Notes: generated by a model not told the origin, from the letters alone. Numbered from the stretch's first letter, positions 36,303 through 39,677 are shown. The stretch is 64,000 bases of DNA from Escherichia phage LH01 (PP434429), one strand, 5' to 3'. Translations and numbers: made by a program.

Positions 36303-37259
36303 TTATTTGAAAGGTTTTACCATATGAAAGTTTTGTTTGAAACGCTTGACGTAATCGTCGTGTCCTAAGCTTTGGTACATACTTACTACTTTGCTATAAT
36401 TTTCCCAAGCGAACTCACGGAACCATCCTGATGTGATTGATGTACAGACCTTTTCAAGGGCCATCATAAAACTATCACGTGGATGGATTTCAAAGTTATT
36501 AGGAATCTGAGAACGTTCTAACGCTAGTACACATGATTCTTCGTATACGCCGGCCAATTTGACCATTTCTGGTAATGATTCGAACTTCTCGCGTGAGGTC
36601 ATGACTTCAGAACCATCTTTCATATAAAATGTATACGCTGGACGGTCTGTTAGTGCAATGGCTTCATGAATAGTATCATGGTCATATGTATAGATGTCAT
36701 CTTTAAAGAACGCACTTTTAGAAGTGTCAAGAACTGGGTGAGCATAATTCAAGGTTTCTTTCTGGCGTTTCAGCATAATTTCAGTAAGTTCATCGTTCAG
36801 TGTAACACCTTTACCACGAAGATACTGAATATGGTTCATAGTCTTTAAAAAGAATGGATTATTTTTCTTGAAACGATGAGACATCTTAATTGCAAGACAT
36901 ATCTCAGGAGTTGCCCAGTAAAACCCGTTCAAACGGTCTTTAGTCAAATTTTTCTTGGCGTATTTTAAAAGGTCATAAGAAGACGTGAAATCTTCAGGAG
37001 TGAGTTCACCGACTAGTTCGCGAACGTTAGTGATAGCCGGAACGATGTATGCTTCAAAATGAGTTTCGCGTCCATTATGGAAGCATTTGAAAACTTGGAC
37101 ATTAGGGTTATCTTGGTGAACATATACACCCATCATTTGATTTTTGAATGCATTCCAAGAACCTTGGTCCGCAATAAAGTCCCAATCACTATTTTTAATA
37201 GCGCTAGAATCAATAAGACCGTGATAGTGAAGTGCACGAGAACCAATAACTAACATCAT
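36303..37259 (-). CDS. Hypothetical 318-aa protein
   Basis: Long ORF with its own promoter cassette; no motif recognised by eye. Confidence 0.55.
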   Translation of the reverse strand: MMLVIGSRALHYHGLIDSSAIKNSDWDFIADQGSWNAFKNQMMGVYVHQDNPNVQVFKCFHNGRETHFEAYIVPAITNVRELVGELTPEDFTSSYDLLKYAKKNLTKDRLNGFYWATPEICLAIKMSHRFKKNNPFFLKTMNHIQYLRGKGVTLNDELTEIMLKRQKETLNYAHPVLDTSKSAFFKDDIYTYDHDTIHEAIALTDRPAYTFYMKDGSEVMTSREKFESLPEMVKLAGVYEESCVLALERSQIPNNFEIHPRDSFMMALEKVCTSITSGWFREFAWENYSKVVSMYQSLGHDDYVKRFKQNFHMVKPFK

Positions 37260-37287: not shown

Positions 37288-37539
37288 TTAAATTTCACGA
37301 CATGCGATATTATATTCATCCCAGAGGTCATCATGTGAAGCCTCTACCAAAGGAACGATTGTACCGTTTATGTCTTCGTTATAAGGGCAAATTGTACAGT
37401 GCGCATCTTCGAATCGGATGCCTTTGTGTTCAGATTTTTTATAACGCATATCGAATATCTTTGCAAACTTTTCACGAGTAATGGTTTTACCAACCACTTT
37501 GGTTCCGATACTTTCGTAATAAATCATTGTGGACTCCAT
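37288..37539 (-). CDS. Hypothetical protein (possible Zn-binding; CTIC)
   Basis: 83-aa ORF; the likely start is the second Met (MIYYES...) with a GGAG SD. Confidence 0.45.
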   Translation of the reverse strand: MESTMIYYESIGTKVVGKTITREKFAKIFDMRYKKSEHKGIRFEDAHCTICPYNEDINGTIVPLVEASHDDLWDEYNIACREI

Positions 37540-37547
37540 TTGTTTTG

Positions 37548-37586
37548 ATAGGACTACTATAACATAGCCCTATCTTGTTGTAAACT
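37548..37586 (-). promoter_or_regulatory. Early-promoter-like palindromic cassette
   Basis: Plus strand gataggactactataacatagccctatcttgttgtaaac. Coordinates approximate. Confidence 0.4.
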
Positions 37587-37589
37587 GTT

Positions 37590-37787
37590 TTAGCAAGAAT
37601 AACTAGATGATACCCAGCCTTGAACAGTGATACTATTGTGGGATAATGAGATCGCGTCCTGGAGATTCAGACCTGCGTTATCTTCAATCCATAATGTAAC
37701 TTCTTCGCGTTCTTCTGTTGCAATTTGGAACAGGTTTTCCAGAGCAGCTACTGCCGTACGTACAGCACAATCTAATTCACGAGACAT
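37590..37787 (-). CDS. Small protein, member 1 of C-terminal W-x-S-S-S-x-x-C family
   Basis: 65 aa ending ...QGWVSSSYSC; shares the terminal motif with the next two genes. Confidence 0.5.
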   Translation of the reverse strand: MSRELDCAVRTAVAALENLFQIATEEREEVTLWIEDNAGLNLQDAISLSHNSITVQGWVSSSYSC

Positions 37788-37796
37788 AATATTTCC

Positions 37797-38024
37797 TTAG
37801 CAAGACATAGAGGAAGAGAACCAGAAACCTTTGCCTTCCGGAATTCCATAATCGTTACGGATCCAGCCATATTCATCATATTCTGAACTGGTCGCCGGAA
37901 TATATCGGTTAAGTCCTTCAGCATACACATGAAAATACTCGCCGGTTTTATCAGCTAATTGTTGGCCTTCACAGATTAGTGCTCGAATTTGGTCTTCAAT
38001 TTCTTTAACGGTTTTAGTGGTCAT
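37797..38024 (-). CDS. Small protein, member 2 of C-terminal W-x-S-S-S-x-x-C family
   Basis: 75 aa ending ...GKGFWFSSSMSC. Confidence 0.5.
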   Translation of the reverse strand: MTTKTVKEIEDQIRALICEGQQLADKTGEYFHVYAEGLNRYIPATSSEYDEYGWIRNDYGIPEGKGFWFSSSMSC

Positions 38025-38033
38025 TTTATTTCC

Positions 38034-38327
38034 TTAACACATTTGAGAAGAGGAGATCCATACACCGGAAGTAACGATACCATTTTCGTCAACTTCACCG
38101 CCATAGTTTTCAATTTCATCGCGCATCCAGCGACTACATTCATAACCAACAGGATAGTAAGTACGACCTGAACCATATTCACCTACATCAAATGAAACAC
38201 CATACTTATCTGCGATAATAGTAGCTTCATTCTCGATATGGTCTTGAGCACGAAGAAGTTTGCTGATTGCTTCTTCTGCAGATTTAGCGTCATTGTATTC
38301 AGGGATTACGATTTCAATTTTACTCAT
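38034..38327 (-). CDS. Small protein, member 3 of C-terminal W-x-S-S-S-x-x-C family
   Basis: 97 aa ending ...SGVWISSSQMC. Confidence 0.5.
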   Translation of the reverse strand: MSKIEIVIPEYNDAKSAEEAISKLLRAQDHIENEATIIADKYGVSFDVGEYGSGRTYYPVGYECSRWMRDEIENYGGEVDENGIVTSGVWISSSQMC

Positions 38328-38683
38328 TTTCTACATTCCTTAATAAAGTTTTCGATTGTTTCATTTTCACGTTTAACTAGAAGTTCATTATAACTAATCA
38401 TTTGAGAAGCGTAAACCTTTTTATTTTTCTTGTTATGGTAAATAAAGTCATAGTAAAAATAGACTACTGTACAAAAGGATGCAATGGATGCAAAGGCTTG
38501 GGTATACCGTAAGTCCTGCCATTGGTCGGTGAATCCACCAGCGTTCCCTATAAATCCTAATACAACACCGTCAATAAGAAATCCAACTAATCCAAAGGCA
38601 AATCCCATGCCAATACTCATAATAAAAATTAGAATGTTCTCACCAAGAGACGGCCATACGGTTAAGAGTTGAGGCTTTTGCAT
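38324..38683 (-). CDS. Small membrane protein, C-terminal ENFIKECRK motif
   Basis: 119 aa; Gly-rich transmembrane segments; C-terminus ...ETIENFIKECRK overlaps the RBS and start of the next gene. Confidence 0.5.
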   Translation of the reverse strand: MQKPQLLTVWPSLGENILIFIMSIGMGFAFGLVGFLIDGVVLGFIGNAGGFTDQWQDLRYTQAFASIASFCTVVYFYYDFIYHNKKNKKVYASQMISYNELLVKRENETIENFIKECRK

Positions 38684-39087
38684 CTTATTTCCTTAACGAA
38701 TTCCATAGCTTCTTCATATTCATACTTTTTAACAGCTTCATCATACTGAGCTTGGGCTTTTGCGCACTGAACTTTCCATTCTCTTAATCGGGCTCTGTGA
38801 TGACGGCCTTGATGCCAATATCCTACCCAATTAATAGGCATTAATAAAAACGGTACAATAAATGGTGCGACGAACATTAATGAAAACGCTGCATCAGACG
38901 ATATAACTTCACTAGAATCTAAAATAGCTCCTATAATCATAAAGATTAAAAATGCTAAAGCTAAAATAGGACCAAATAATACTTCATACGGGATTAATTT
39001 ACGTTTGTATTCGTAGGCCCAAGGCTTACTTGGCATGTATAGGGTTGGCTTTGACATATTCTCTACATTCCATAATAAATTGCTCAA
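38662..39087 (-). CDS. Membrane protein, C-terminal EFVKEIRCK motif
   Basis: 141 aa; two transmembrane helices; C-terminus ...EEAMEFVKEIRCKSLNS. Confidence 0.5.
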   Translation of the reverse strand: MSNLLWNVENMSKPTLYMPSKPWAYEYKRKLIPYEVLFGPILALAFLIFMIIGAILDSSEVISSDAAFSLMFVAPFIVPFLLMPINWVGYWHQGRHHRARLREWKVQCAKAQAQYDEAVKKYEYEEAMEFVKEIRCKSLNS

Positions 39088-39628
39088 GGATTAAATTGTT
39101 AGTGAAATTAGGACTAACAACCATAGTTTCATAAAGCGCATCAATAGCACTTAAAGCATCAACTCTCTTAAGCAAAGGCTTGCCTTCATACATAGTTTCA
39201 GAATCGATGATTAACGTAAAGTAATATTTTTTATTATCGACTAGAACTTCTGTATCGATATAAAACATATTAGACCTCAGAAGCTTATCTCTAAAACCAT
39301 AATAATCTTCAGAGCGTTCGCTGATATATTCCCATTCAGTGTTTAAACAACAAACAGACCACGTAGGAGCAACGAAATCAGTGAATCTAATATCATGGTC
39401 TGCAACTAGTTTAGCAATAGCTCCGATATCATGAATCATAATACCTGGGGCTAATAAAGATTTTCTGCTATGGCTAGCCGTTTTCTCAGTGGTTTCATAA
39501 GAAGACGACCAGTACCATTTACGTCCGGTTGCAACATATCGTAATGAATCAACTAAAGACGTAGGTGGATTTACCTTATCTCGGAACTCTTCGAACATTG
39601 AGTCAATATCATTATTTTGGTTTCGCAT
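39026..39628 (-). CDS. Hypothetical protein with EQFIMECR near C-terminus
   Basis: Start moved to MRNQNNDIDSMFEEF (AAAGGAG SD); soluble; carries the same F-I-x-E-C-R motif. Confidence 0.5.
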   Translation of the reverse strand: MRNQNNDIDSMFEEFRDKVNPPTSLVDSLRYVATGRKWYWSSSYETTEKTASHSRKSLLAPGIMIHDIGAIAKLVADHDIRFTDFVAPTWSVCCLNTEWEYISERSEDYYGFRDKLLRSNMFYIDTEVLVDNKKYYFTLIIDSETMYEGKPLLKRVDALSAIDALYETMVVSPNFTNNLILEQFIMECREYVKANPIHAK

Positions 39629-39677
39629 GTTAACTCCTTTATTATCCAAAAGGAGGACCGGAGTCCTCCGTATTATT

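What the first reader, a model, noticed from the sequence alone, without database searches (positions are those of the whole stretch)
37590..38327. Three tandem small proteins sharing a C-terminal W-x-S-S-S-x-x-Cys motif
Three adjacent genes (65, 75 and 97 aa) have dissimilar bodies but end in ...QGWVSSSYSC, ...GFWFSSSMSC and ...GVWISSSQMC, each immediately before the stop. A conserved terminal motif with a terminal Cys after a Ser triplet on otherwise divergent acidic proteins looks like a shared modification, targeting or interaction tag. I do not recognise the motif.
Basis: seen in the sequence. Interest (0 to 1): 0.65.

Follow-up and report, generated by a model that had tools for sequence, protein, structure and literature searches.

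The report
Cys-tailed small proteins with partner enzyme
The three small genes are diverged copies of one phage protein family whose invariant C-terminal Trp-x-x-Ser-Ser-x-x-Cys tail almost always sits just upstream of one uncharacterised enzyme gene, which points to an undescribed enzyme-plus-client module found in hundreds of phages.

Summary
Three minus-strand genes (65, 75 and 97 aa) end in WVSSSYSC, WFSSSMSC and WISSSQMC directly before the stop. About 2e-4 such ORFs are expected by chance in the whole genome.

The bodies are not unrelated. All three are tandem paralogues of one phage-restricted family of small acidic proteins. The family has an N-terminal helix, a small beta-sheet and a tail of W-x-x-S-S-x-x-C-COOH.

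The tail is selected at protein level. All six Ser codons, both Cys codons, all three stop codons and varied downstream sequence occur across 146 distinct homologues.

The main new result is a linkage. In 75 of 80 viral loci fetched with the neighbouring 318-aa DUF7277+DUF7275 protein (window 36303-37259), one to six tail-bearing genes lie just upstream on the same strand. The loci come from T4-like, Phapecoctavirus, Otagovirus and very long (350-390 kb) contigs. No other gene family travels with the enzyme gene.

The enzyme keeps an invariant G-S...D-x-D signature like that of nucleotidyltransferases, plus a His/Asp/Glu-rich second domain. Its fold could not be verified.

Best reading: the tail is the handle or acceptor site for this enzyme. 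Covalent modification of the Ser or Cys residues is inferred, not shown. No paper in the searched library (open-access PubMed Central and bioRxiv) and no solved structure describes either partner.

The parts
38034..38327 (-). g3: 97-aa tail-bearing small acidic protein (phrog_899; the RB69ORF139c homologue), ends ...GVWISSSQMC
37797..38024 (-). g2: 75-aa paralogue (phrog_899), ends ...GFWFSSSMSC
   Evidence: BLASTP against g3 gives E=3e-4. This allele is 100% identical only in phage PECP20 and 81-84% identical in the VR25, VR7 and VR20 phages. Most Mosigvirus relatives carry a different 90-aa paralogue at this position, ending ...GGWVASSHTC.
37590..37787 (-). g1: 65-aa shortened paralogue (phrog_4882; the RB69ORF136c homologue), ends ...QGWVSSSYSC
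   Evidence: It lacks the central YGxGxTYxP segment but keeps the helix, the [AED]D..G element and the tail (alignment A2). Tail-blind HMM E=5.7e-9.
38037..38060 (-). Tail of g3: W-I-S-S-S-Q-M-C codons, directly before the stop at 38034-38036
37800..37823 (-). Tail of g2: W-F-S-S-S-M-S-C codons
37593..37616 (-). Tail of g1: W-V-S-S-S-Y-S-C codons
36303..37259 (-). Partner enzyme: 318-aa DUF7277 (residues 2-101) plus DUF7275 (residues 120-305) protein (the RB69ORF134c homologue, phrog_2141)
   Evidence: Pfam E=5e-28 and 3e-79. Homologues lie immediately downstream of tail genes in four unrelated phage backbones and in 75 of 80 viral loci. Residues invariant in 63 sequences: G6 S7 D25 D27 K125 H128 H194 D195 H198 E240 E241 E248 R249.
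37288..37539 (-). Intervening 83-aa ORF (phrog_3723), not part of the conserved module
   Evidence: Among the loci held at that point (L001-L008), found only in the two Mosigvirus-type relatives L001 and L002. Its family is not among the widely shared families in the clustering.
38387..38415 (-). Promoter-like site inside the upstream membrane-protein gene (e.3 homologue), placed to drive g3-g2-g1
   Evidence: Consensus scan TTTACG-17-TATAAT. The same place is annotated as a T4 middle-type promoter in phage SA35RD. This is a consensus match only.
37556..37584 (-). Early-promoter-like site just downstream of the g1 stop, ahead of the 83-aa ORF and the enzyme gene
   Evidence: Consensus scan TTTACA-17-TATAGT with TG. 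SA35RD annotates a terminator in this gap. This is a consensus match only.

Best explanation
g1, g2 and g3 are three tandem paralogues of a phage-specific family of small acidic proteins. Each has an N-terminal helix and a small beta-sheet, and ends in an invariant W-x-x-S-S-x-x-Cys-COOH tail.

The tail is the functional handle that ties these proteins to the enzyme encoded just downstream, the DUF7277+DUF7275 protein at 36303-37259. Together they form a mobile two-part module of one conserved enzyme and one to six fast-diverging clients.

Proposed mechanism. The enzyme has an N-terminal G-S...D-x-D signature like that of pol-beta-type nucleotidyltransferases, and a second domain rich in invariant His, Asp and Glu. 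It docks the Trp-anchored tail and covalently modifies its nucleophiles, the Ser pair and/or the terminal Cys. Nucleotidylation is the most likely chemistry. This would arm or regulate clients whose variable bodies engage host targets.

Shown: paralogy, protein-level selection on the tail, restriction to phages, and the tight genomic coupling to the enzyme.

Inferred: physical interaction, the enzyme's chemistry, any covalent modification, expression early or in the middle of infection (from consensus promoter matches only), and the host-directed role.

Sub-claim confidences: paralogous family with a selected tail 0.95; functional module with the enzyme 0.8; enzyme covalently modifies the tail 0.35.
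For: Tail conservation:
- Every full-length homologue from three protein searches ends in W-x-[S/N/L]-[S/G]-S plus terminal Cys (one with a single residue between); the two short fragments lack it.
- So do 21 of the 23 genuine distant representatives retrieved from a scan of 1.84 billion proteins; the other two stop short of the Cys.
- A tail-blind HMM on tail-stripped ORFs finds 144 distinct relatives. Of these, 105 end in strict W..SS..C, 30 in near variants ending in Cys, and 9 in neither.
- Codon and stop diversity shows selection on the protein.

Coupling to the enzyme:
- phmmer finds the 318-aa protein directly downstream of tail genes in Mosigvirus, Aeromonas phage 31, Phapecoctavirus anhysbys, Otagovirus phiPsa397 and a metagenome contig (E 1e-22 to 1e-81).
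- Of 80 viral loci anchored on the enzyme, 75 carry 1-6 same-strand tail genes upstream. With a looser tail pattern, 80 of 83 do.
- In all-against-all clustering, the tail family is the only family shared across backbones: a main cluster in 67 loci plus satellite clusters, against at most 22 loci for any other family.
- In the near-complete genome there are exactly three tail genes and one enzyme gene, and they are adjacent.
- Four of the five MAG loci from 185,579 genomes also have tail genes upstream.

Enzyme character:
- G6-S7 and D25-x-D27 are invariant even in the distant 250-aa clade.
- The only recurrent foreign Pfam hit is DUF6036, 'nucleotidyltransferase' (2 of 63 sequences, E=0.005).
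- Depositors call some members nucleotidyltransferase.

Divergence rates:
- Client bodies diverge to about 20-40% identity while the enzyme stays at about 40-50% with dozens of invariant residues. This fits variable targets combined with a constant enzyme interface.
- The invariant tail residues (Ser, Ser, Cys) are nucleophiles.
Against: - No experiment or structure shows binding or modification.
- The nucleotidyltransferase assignment is weak. No significant profile match was found to PDB sequences. hhalign against E. coli Cca and AadA gives probability below 1%. The G-S to D-x-D spacing of 17 residues is longer than the canonical 9-13. AF2 on the single sequence failed (pLDDT 36.6).
- A distant short clade of the enzyme in actinophages and Vibrio phages has no tail-bearing neighbour, so the enzyme can work without such clients.
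- The spacing between the Ser residues and the terminal Cys varies in about 20% of relatives.
- A few loci lack tail genes (L023, L028).
- RB69's own ORF139c is recorded as a 71-aa protein, too short to reach the tail.
Confidence: 0.4

Rival explanations
1. Adaptor or regulator model. The tail is a non-covalent docking peptide. The small proteins act as interchangeable specificity subunits that bring the enzyme to different host targets, or as activators or inhibitors of the enzyme in the manner of an antitoxin. They are not themselves modified.
For: It rests on the same coupling evidence as the best explanation. A constant tail with variable bodies and one conserved enzyme is what an adaptor set would look like. 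A terminal Cys offers a thiol plus a carboxylate, a good ligand for an active-site metal (general chemistry, not tested here).
Against: Strict invariance of two Ser and a terminal Cys, all nucleophiles, is more typical of an acceptor site than of a docking motif. Three to six different inhibitors for one enzyme would be hard to explain. There is no direct evidence either way.
Confidence: 0.25
2. Enzyme-independent warhead or host-recognised tag. The tail acts directly on a conserved host component. Possible modes are metal or thiol chemistry by the terminal Cys, binding to a host protease or chaperone, or acting as a degron. On this view the enzyme is merely a co-regulated neighbour in the same pathway.
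For: The small proteins are acidic and sit behind promoter-like sites of early and middle type, like many T4 host-takeover proteins (the T4 comparison is from general knowledge). The enzyme's distant clade functions without tail proteins.
Against: The pair stays adjacent across unrelated phage backbones infecting Escherichia, Aeromonas, Pseudomonas and Acinetobacter and in uncultured contigs. No other gene is retained with it. In the near-complete genome the tail occurs nowhere away from the enzyme gene.
Confidence: 0.15
3. Purely structural conservation. The tail is simply the best-conserved last strand and turn of a small fold shared by paralogues, with no tag function, and gene order is inherited.
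For: The three genes are homologous throughout. W90 lies in a predicted beta-strand.
Against: The residues after the Trp have lower model confidence (block mean 76 against 94 for the two preceding blocks). The tail survives deletion of the whole central segment in g1 and large N-terminal additions in proteins of 139-173 aa. A buried structural role does not explain an obligatory Cys as the very last residue in about 94% of relatives. Shared ancestry does not explain adjacency to the enzyme in unrelated genomes.
Confidence: 0.1
4. Nucleotide-level artefact. The motif is imposed by an overlapping RBS, terminator or other DNA or RNA element.
For: A terminator-like hairpin and T-run overlaps the g2 tail codons (37821-37841). 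The Shine-Dalgarno sequence of the next gene begins at the stop codon of g3 and g2.
Against: The hairpin exists only in g2. Ser codons differ between the three genes and include AGY-to-TCN switches across homologues. Downstream sequence varies, being an RBS, a terminator, a promoter or an overlapping start. All three stop codons are used.
Confidence: 0.01

Closest known systems
Protein nucleotidylation by pol-beta-fold nucleotidyltransferases with a dedicated protein partner (MNT-HEPN type VII toxin-antitoxin; GlnE with glutamine synthetase; GlnD with PII). Recalled from established literature.
   Same: An enzyme with a G-S...D-x-D signature is encoded next to small proteins that are its likely targets. 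GlnD and bacterial CCA-adding enzymes also combine a transferase domain with a second His/Asp-rich hydrolase domain.
   Different: No significant sequence or profile similarity to any of these. The partners are not HEPN proteins (no Pfam hit). There are several divergent partners per enzyme. The putative acceptor is a C-terminal Ser-Ser-x-x-Cys tail, not a Tyr. The module is restricted to phages.
AbiEii/MenT (DUF1814) nucleotidyltransferase toxins. Recalled from literature.
   Same: Similar size (about 250-320 aa). An N-terminal 'G-[GS]-x-A-L ... D-x-D-F'-like motif is followed by a helical domain with conserved basic and acidic residues.
   Different: No Pfam AbiEii hit in 63 sequences at E of 1 or less and no hit to solved structures. 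The neighbours are not AbiEi- or MenA-type antitoxins.
RiPP systems with several tandem precursors and C-terminal Ser/Cys chemistry (lanthionine rings; AviCys from S-x-x-C-COOH made by LanD; S-GlcNAc on the C-terminal Cys of glycocin F). Recalled from literature.
   Same: Several small genes sit next to one enzyme. The C-terminus is Ser-rich and ends in Cys, with Ser-to-Cys spacings of 3-5 residues like lanthionine or AviCys rings.
   Different: The logic is reversed. Here the C-terminal piece is invariant and the body is variable, whereas RiPPs keep the leader and vary the core. The bodies are predicted to fold (pLDDT 87.7). No LanB, LanM, LanD, radical-SAM or glycosyltransferase domain is detected in the five neighbouring ORFs scanned (36303-37259, 37288-37539 and 38324-39649).
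C-terminal tag and ligase systems (ubiquitin-like GG with E1; Pup GGQ with PafA/Dop). Recalled from literature.
   Same: A short invariant C-terminal motif on a small protein, encoded beside the enzyme that would act on it.
   Different: No E1, ThiF or PafA homology. Many divergent paralogues per genome rather than one conserved tag protein. The terminal residue is Cys, not Gly, Gln or Glu.
PHROG families phrog_899 and phrog_4882 (small proteins) and phrog_2141, Pfam DUF7277 and DUF7275 (enzyme)
   Same: The window's genes are clear members.
   Different: These entries carry no function. Neither the shared tail nor the coupling between the two families is recorded in the family descriptions returned by the tools. 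No paper mentioning either DUF was found.

Membership tests
phrog_899 / phrog_4882 small phage proteins | Significant match to the family profile | tested here: met
   g2 E=5.8e-15 and g3 E=1.6e-23 to phrog_899. g1 E=7.7e-37 to phrog_4882.
Pfam DUF7277 + DUF7275 (partner enzyme) | Match above the gathering score to both domains | tested here: met
   98 bits and 265.6 bits against cut-offs of 27. All 63 relatives match both domains at E of 1 or less; in four of the five distant short-clade members the DUF7277 match (19-21 bits) is below the 27-bit cut-off.
Pol-beta superfamily nucleotidyltransferase | hG[GS]-x(9-13)-Dh[DE]h signature on a strand-helix-strand element | tested here: inconclusive
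   G6-S7 and D25-x-D27 are invariant in 63 sequences, but the spacing is 17 residues, longer than canonical. The strand-helix-strand context is only read from the sequence.
Pol-beta superfamily nucleotidyltransferase | Significant sequence or profile similarity to a recognised nucleotidyltransferase family | tested here: not met
   Only DUF6036 at E=0.005 in 2 of 63 sequences. No PDB hit with a single sequence or with profiles. hhalign against Cca and AadA gives probability below 1%.
Pol-beta superfamily nucleotidyltransferase | Nucleotidyltransferase fold in a structure or a confident model | not testable with these tools
   The single-sequence AF2 model has pLDDT 36.6.
HEPN-MNT type VII toxin-antitoxin | Partner protein is a HEPN domain with an R-x(4-6)-H motif | tested here: not met
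   No HEPN or other Pfam hit above the gathering score for g1-g3. No PADLOC hit below E=0.05 for the small proteins.
Lanthipeptide / AviCys RiPP cluster | LanB, LanM, LanKC, LanL, LanD or radical-SAM enzyme in the cluster | tested here: not met
   Pfam and NCBIfam scans of the neighbours show only the two DUFs. Clustering finds no other conserved neighbour.
Lanthipeptide / AviCys RiPP cluster | Conserved leader with a hypervariable C-terminal core | tested here: not met
   The reverse is seen: the tail is invariant and the bodies share about 20-40% identity.
Lanthipeptide / AviCys RiPP cluster | Dehydration, thioether or decarboxylation mass shifts on the peptide | not testable with these tools
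   Needs mass spectrometry.
Known anti-phage defence proteins (PADLOC-DB) | Significant match to a model of a known or candidate anti-phage defence protein (PADLOC holds no anti-defence models) | tested here: not met
   Best hits have E of 0.009 or worse and are implausible.

The most novel reading that the evidence does not exclude
The module is a previously unknown post-translational maturation system in phages. The DUF7277/DUF7275 enzyme would activate a tail Ser, by nucleotidylation or phosphorylation in the G-S...D-x-D domain. Its His/Asp/Glu-rich second domain would then eliminate the activated group, and the obligatory terminal Cys would attack the product. The result would be a small thioether (lanthionine- or AviCys-like) ring, or another Cys-dependent adduct, at the C-terminus of folded client proteins. 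This would be RiPP-type chemistry applied as a constant 'cap' to a diversifying set of host-directed effector proteins.
Probability: 0.12. Interest if true: 0.9.

Novelty: new variant of a known kind. Interest (0 to 1): 0.68.

Why it matters
Most early genes of T4-like phages have no known function. This result turns three anonymous ORFs into a defined and testable system: one conserved enzyme, a set of fast-evolving small acidic clients, and an eight-residue tail ending in Cys that links them.

The enzyme occurs in 734 of 50,697 phage records and in 175 confirmed stretches in IMG/VR viral contigs, but in only five MAG contigs among 185,579 bacterial and archaeal genomes. It is therefore a widespread function restricted to phages.

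If the tail is a modification site, this would be a new protein-modification chemistry or recognition code in phage infection, and possibly a portable tag-and-enzyme pair for biotechnology. If the clients are adaptors, it would be a modular way for phages to retarget one enzyme to many host proteins. Either outcome can be tested with simple co-expression and mass spectrometry.

Tried and rejected
- RBS or terminator imprint on the motif: rejected by codon, stop and downstream diversity.
- Chance occurrence: rejected, with an expectation of 2e-4.
- 'Unrelated bodies': rejected, because the genes are paralogues.
- An internal 'WYWSSSYETT' in the e.5 homologue (39026-39649) looked like a fourth copy. 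It does not fit the motif and is not C-terminal.
- The 'sulfurtransferase' label on the e.4 homologue in phage JK45 gave no lead. Pfam finds nothing in the window's e.4 homologue.
The single-sequence model is unusable. Protein ids obtained through the listing of cluster members did not get round the restriction.
- Building a CCA-enzyme profile from viral contigs gave only two close relatives, so this was dropped.
- Literature searches for the DUF names, the RB69 ORF names, motif strings and concept terms found nothing relevant.
- The 'HNS-dependent expression A' label on two enzyme homologues looks spurious, because no sequence or profile match to any solved structure was found.

Full report
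**Where the window comes from.** The region is 98.6% identical to Escherichia phage PECP20 and about 93% identical to many Mosigvirus (RB69-like, T4-type) phages. In annotated relatives, the three genes lie between the RB69ORF134c homologue and the e.3, e.4 and e.5 membrane-protein genes. This is in the accessory stretch between the lysozyme gene e and the tRNA cluster. All genes here are on the minus strand.

**Checking the observation.**
- ORFs 37590-37787 (g1, 65 aa), 37797-38024 (g2, 75 aa) and 38034-38327 (g3, 97 aa) end in QGWVSSSYSC, GFWFSSSMSC and GVWISSSQMC directly before the stop.
- I joined the window to the remaining parts of the PECP20 genome, giving 1464 six-frame ORFs of at least 30 aa. 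These three are the only ORFs with the motif, or with any loose variant of it.
- About 2e-4 such ORFs are expected from amino-acid composition.
- The proteins are acidic, with pI 4.2-4.6.

**The motif is not a DNA-level element.**
- The three genes spell the Ser triplet differently: TCA-TCT-AGT, TCT-TCC-TCT and TCC-TCT-TCT.
- The Shine-Dalgarno sequence of the following gene begins at the stop codon (TAA-GGAAAT..ATG). Nothing starts behind g1.
- Across 146 distinct tail-bearing homologues, both invariant Ser positions use all six Ser codons. That includes about 40 AGY against about 105 TCN. Cys is TGT or TGC, the stop is TAA, TGA or TAG, and the downstream sequence is unrelated from case to case.
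- A terminator-like hairpin overlaps the tail codons of g2 only.

**The three genes are paralogues.**
- g2 and g3 both match phrog_899 and align over 65 residues (34% identity, E=3e-4).
- g1 (phrog_4882) keeps the N-terminal helix, the [A/E/D]-D-x-x-G element and the tail. It lacks the central segment (alignment A2).
- I built an HMM from the family alignment with the tail columns removed and ran it on ORFs stripped of their last ten residues. It still finds g1 (E=5.7e-9), g2 and g3.
- The family consensus is: helix, I-A-D-x-x-G-x-x-F, Y-G-x-G-x-T-Y-x-P, an acidic variable segment, then G-x-W-x-S-S-S-x-x-C (alignment A3).
The bodies are strongly diverged copies of one small domain.

**The tail is conserved in homologues.**
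- Every full-length homologue from three protein searches carries the tail, in three cases with one substitution or a shorter spacing; the two short fragments (P0036, P0050) lack it.
- A profile scan of 1.84 billion representative proteins gave only 27 hits. One is spurious. Of the 26 genuine ones, all but two that stop before the terminal Cys end in W-x-S-S-S-x-x(-x)-C.
- The tail-blind HMM found 144 distinct relatives in the fetched loci. Of these, 105 end in strict W..SS..C. Another 30 end in near variants that still finish with Cys, for example WYSSSMQNC, GWYSSHC and W.GSSC. Nine have neither.
- Some tail-bearing proteins escape the family HMM (33 ORFs, 31 distinct sequences, 52-155 aa). 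They still show the pattern of helix, 'G-h-x-h' strand and tail, sometimes behind a long N-terminal extension.

**Structure of the small proteins.**
- AF2 on g3 with the 20-sequence alignment gave mean pLDDT 87.7. The model has a long helix (14-42) and a small sheet. W90 sits in the last strand, and the last seven residues are less confident (block mean 76 against 94 for the two preceding blocks).
- Foldseek against viral models returned only uncharacterised members of the same family.

**The key result: a conserved partner gene.**
- When I fetched distant phages carrying homologues of the small proteins, each had a gene of about 300-326 aa immediately downstream.
- phmmer shows that all of these are homologues of the window's 318-aa protein at 36303-37259, which carries Pfam DUF7277 plus DUF7275.
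- They occur in Aeromonas phage 31 (next to nrdD), Phapecoctavirus anhysbys and Otagovirus phiPsa397, with E-values of 1e-70 to 1e-81. A truncated copy in a metagenome contig scores 8.6e-22.
- I then anchored on the enzyme instead. Of 80 IMG/VR viral loci encoding it, 75 have one to six same-strand ORFs just upstream that end in the tail.
- With a looser pattern, 80 of 83 loci do, including L051 and L074, which have 172-173-aa proteins ending NWDSSTC and GWDSSSC.
- The median gap from the last tail gene to the enzyme start is about 300 nt. The window's gap of 330 nt holds an unrelated 83-aa ORF; among loci L001-L008 that ORF occurs only in the two Mosigvirus-type relatives.
- All-against-all clustering of every ORF in these loci shows that the tail family is the only family travelling with the enzyme across backbones. 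Its main cluster covers 67 loci, with satellite clusters in 19 and 10 loci. Every other family is backbone-specific and occurs in at most 22 loci.
- The enzyme occurs in 734 of 50,697 phage records. Among 185,579 bacterial and archaeal genomes it occurs in only five MAG contigs, four of which also have tail genes upstream.

**What the enzyme is.**
- Sixty-three sequences, including a distant clade of about 250 aa, keep these residues invariant: G6, S7, D25, D27, K125, H128, H194, D195, H198, E240, E241, E248 and R249.
- The N-terminal 'h-h-h-G-S-x-A-L ... D-x-D-h' element reads like the pol-beta nucleotidyltransferase signature. This is my reading of the sequence against established knowledge of that superfamily.
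- Three weak supports exist. The only recurrent foreign Pfam hit is DUF6036, 'nucleotidyltransferase' (2 of 63 sequences, E=0.005). A few depositors use the name nucleotidyltransferase. The best local hhalign match to AadA places D-x-D on D-x-D, but at a probability of only 0.25%.
- None of this is significant. There are no PDB sequence or profile hits. The single-sequence AF2 model is unusable (pLDDT 36.6).
- Membership in the nucleotidyltransferase superfamily is therefore unproven.
- The second domain has many invariant His, Asp and Glu residues, which suggests a second catalytic or metal site. That is inference only.

**Interpretation.**
- Four things are shown. The genes form a paralogous family. 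The tail is selected at protein level. The family is restricted to phages. The coupling to one enzyme gene is very tight and independent of the genomic backbone.
- From this I infer a functional module of one enzyme and several clients.
- The enzyme is slow-evolving (40-50% identity between very different phages). The client bodies are fast-evolving (about 20-40%). The tail is invariant. This pattern fits a tail that faces the enzyme and bodies that face variable, probably host, targets.
- The invariant tail residues after the Trp are all nucleophiles (Ser, Ser, Cys), and the Cys must be the very last residue. I therefore favour the tail as an acceptor site that the enzyme covalently modifies, with nucleotidylation as the first guess.
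- My overall confidence in this is 0.4. I put 0.8 on the module itself and about 0.35 on covalent modification.
- The main rival is a non-covalent docking, adaptor or regulator role (0.25). Next are an enzyme-independent action of the tail on the host (0.15) and purely structural conservation (0.1).
- Promoter-like sites suggest two units: g3-g2-g1 driven from a middle-type promoter inside the e.3 homologue, and the 83-aa ORF plus the enzyme driven from an early-type promoter behind g1. These are consensus matches only.

**Comparison with known systems.**
- The nearest functional analogies are protein nucleotidylation by pol-beta-fold enzymes with dedicated partners (MNT-HEPN, GlnE, GlnD) and AbiEii/MenT toxins. 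Others are RiPP clusters with several precursors and C-terminal Ser/Cys chemistry, and C-terminal tag-and-ligase pairs.
- Every membership test I could run failed or was inconclusive (see the table).
- The RiPP logic is reversed here, with a constant tail and a variable body.
- No paper mentions the DUFs, the RB69 ORF names or the motif.
- I rate the finding a new variant of a known kind, namely an enzyme with dedicated protein clients. There is a real chance (about 0.12) that the chemistry is entirely new.

**Limits.**
- There is no experimental evidence, no enzyme structure and no complex prediction.
- T4 itself was not checked for absence of both partners.
- The viral loci share ancestry, so 75 of 80 is not 75 independent events. 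The independent support is the recurrence in several unrelated backbones and the lack of any other co-travelling gene.

Noticed in passing
L089 4094-4393; L090 4100-4390; L092 4114-4422; L093 2860-3156: A distant, shorter clade (about 250-263 aa) of the DUF7275 enzyme occurs in Streptomyces, Gordonia and Vibrio phages. It has no Cys-tailed neighbour. Instead it sits next to a protein of about 100 aa that in three of the four loci carries a 'G-Y-Y/R-D-S-W/Y-x-G ... E-V-x-P'-like motif near its C-terminus. This may be a different client family for the same enzyme.
   Followed up: partly
L008 4268-4486 (Aeromonas phage 31 ORF063c); L066 2932-3177: Some family members carry the tail twice: once internally (DDWLSSSC-YGEG..., HWSDSSC-YGG...) and once at the C-terminus (VWMSSSC, DWDSSSANC). 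This suggests internal duplication or fusion of two units.
   Followed up: no
window 37797-38024 compared with L001/L002 6598-6870: The middle gene is a swapped allele. The window and PECP20 carry a 75-aa paralogue whose next-best matches (81-84% identical) are the VR25, VR7 and VR20 phages. Most Mosigvirus relatives have a different 90-aa paralogue (...GGWVASSHTC) at the same position. This is cassette-like exchange within the array.
   Followed up: partly
P0054 (71 aa) and BFVD entry Q7Y506 (RB69ORF139c, 71 aa): Some g3 homologues, including RB69's own ORF139c, are recorded as 71-aa proteins. P0054 breaks off after the YGSGRTYYP segment and lacks the tail; Q7Y506 is the same length but its sequence was not read. 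These could be natural truncations, frameshifts or sequencing errors.
   Followed up: no
window 37288-37539 (-): An 83-aa ORF (phrog_3723, with an H-C-x-x-C-P motif) sits between the tail genes and the enzyme gene. Among loci L001-L008 it occurs only in the two Mosigvirus-type relatives. It is preceded by a T4 early-promoter-like GTTTAC...TATAGT.
   Followed up: partly
window 37821-37841 (-): A terminator-like hairpin followed by a T-rich run lies inside the g2 coding sequence and overlaps its tail codons. It is absent from g1 and g3.
   Followed up: no
window 39026-39649 (-), e.5 homologue: The protein contains an internal 'KWYWSSSYETT' near its N-terminus. This is a partial look-alike of the tail, but it is not C-terminal and has no Cys. 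It is probably chance.
   Followed up: partly
The 231,743-bp contig has the same length as the Aeromonas phage CC2 record. That phage also carries the tail-protein and DUF7275 module.
   Followed up: no
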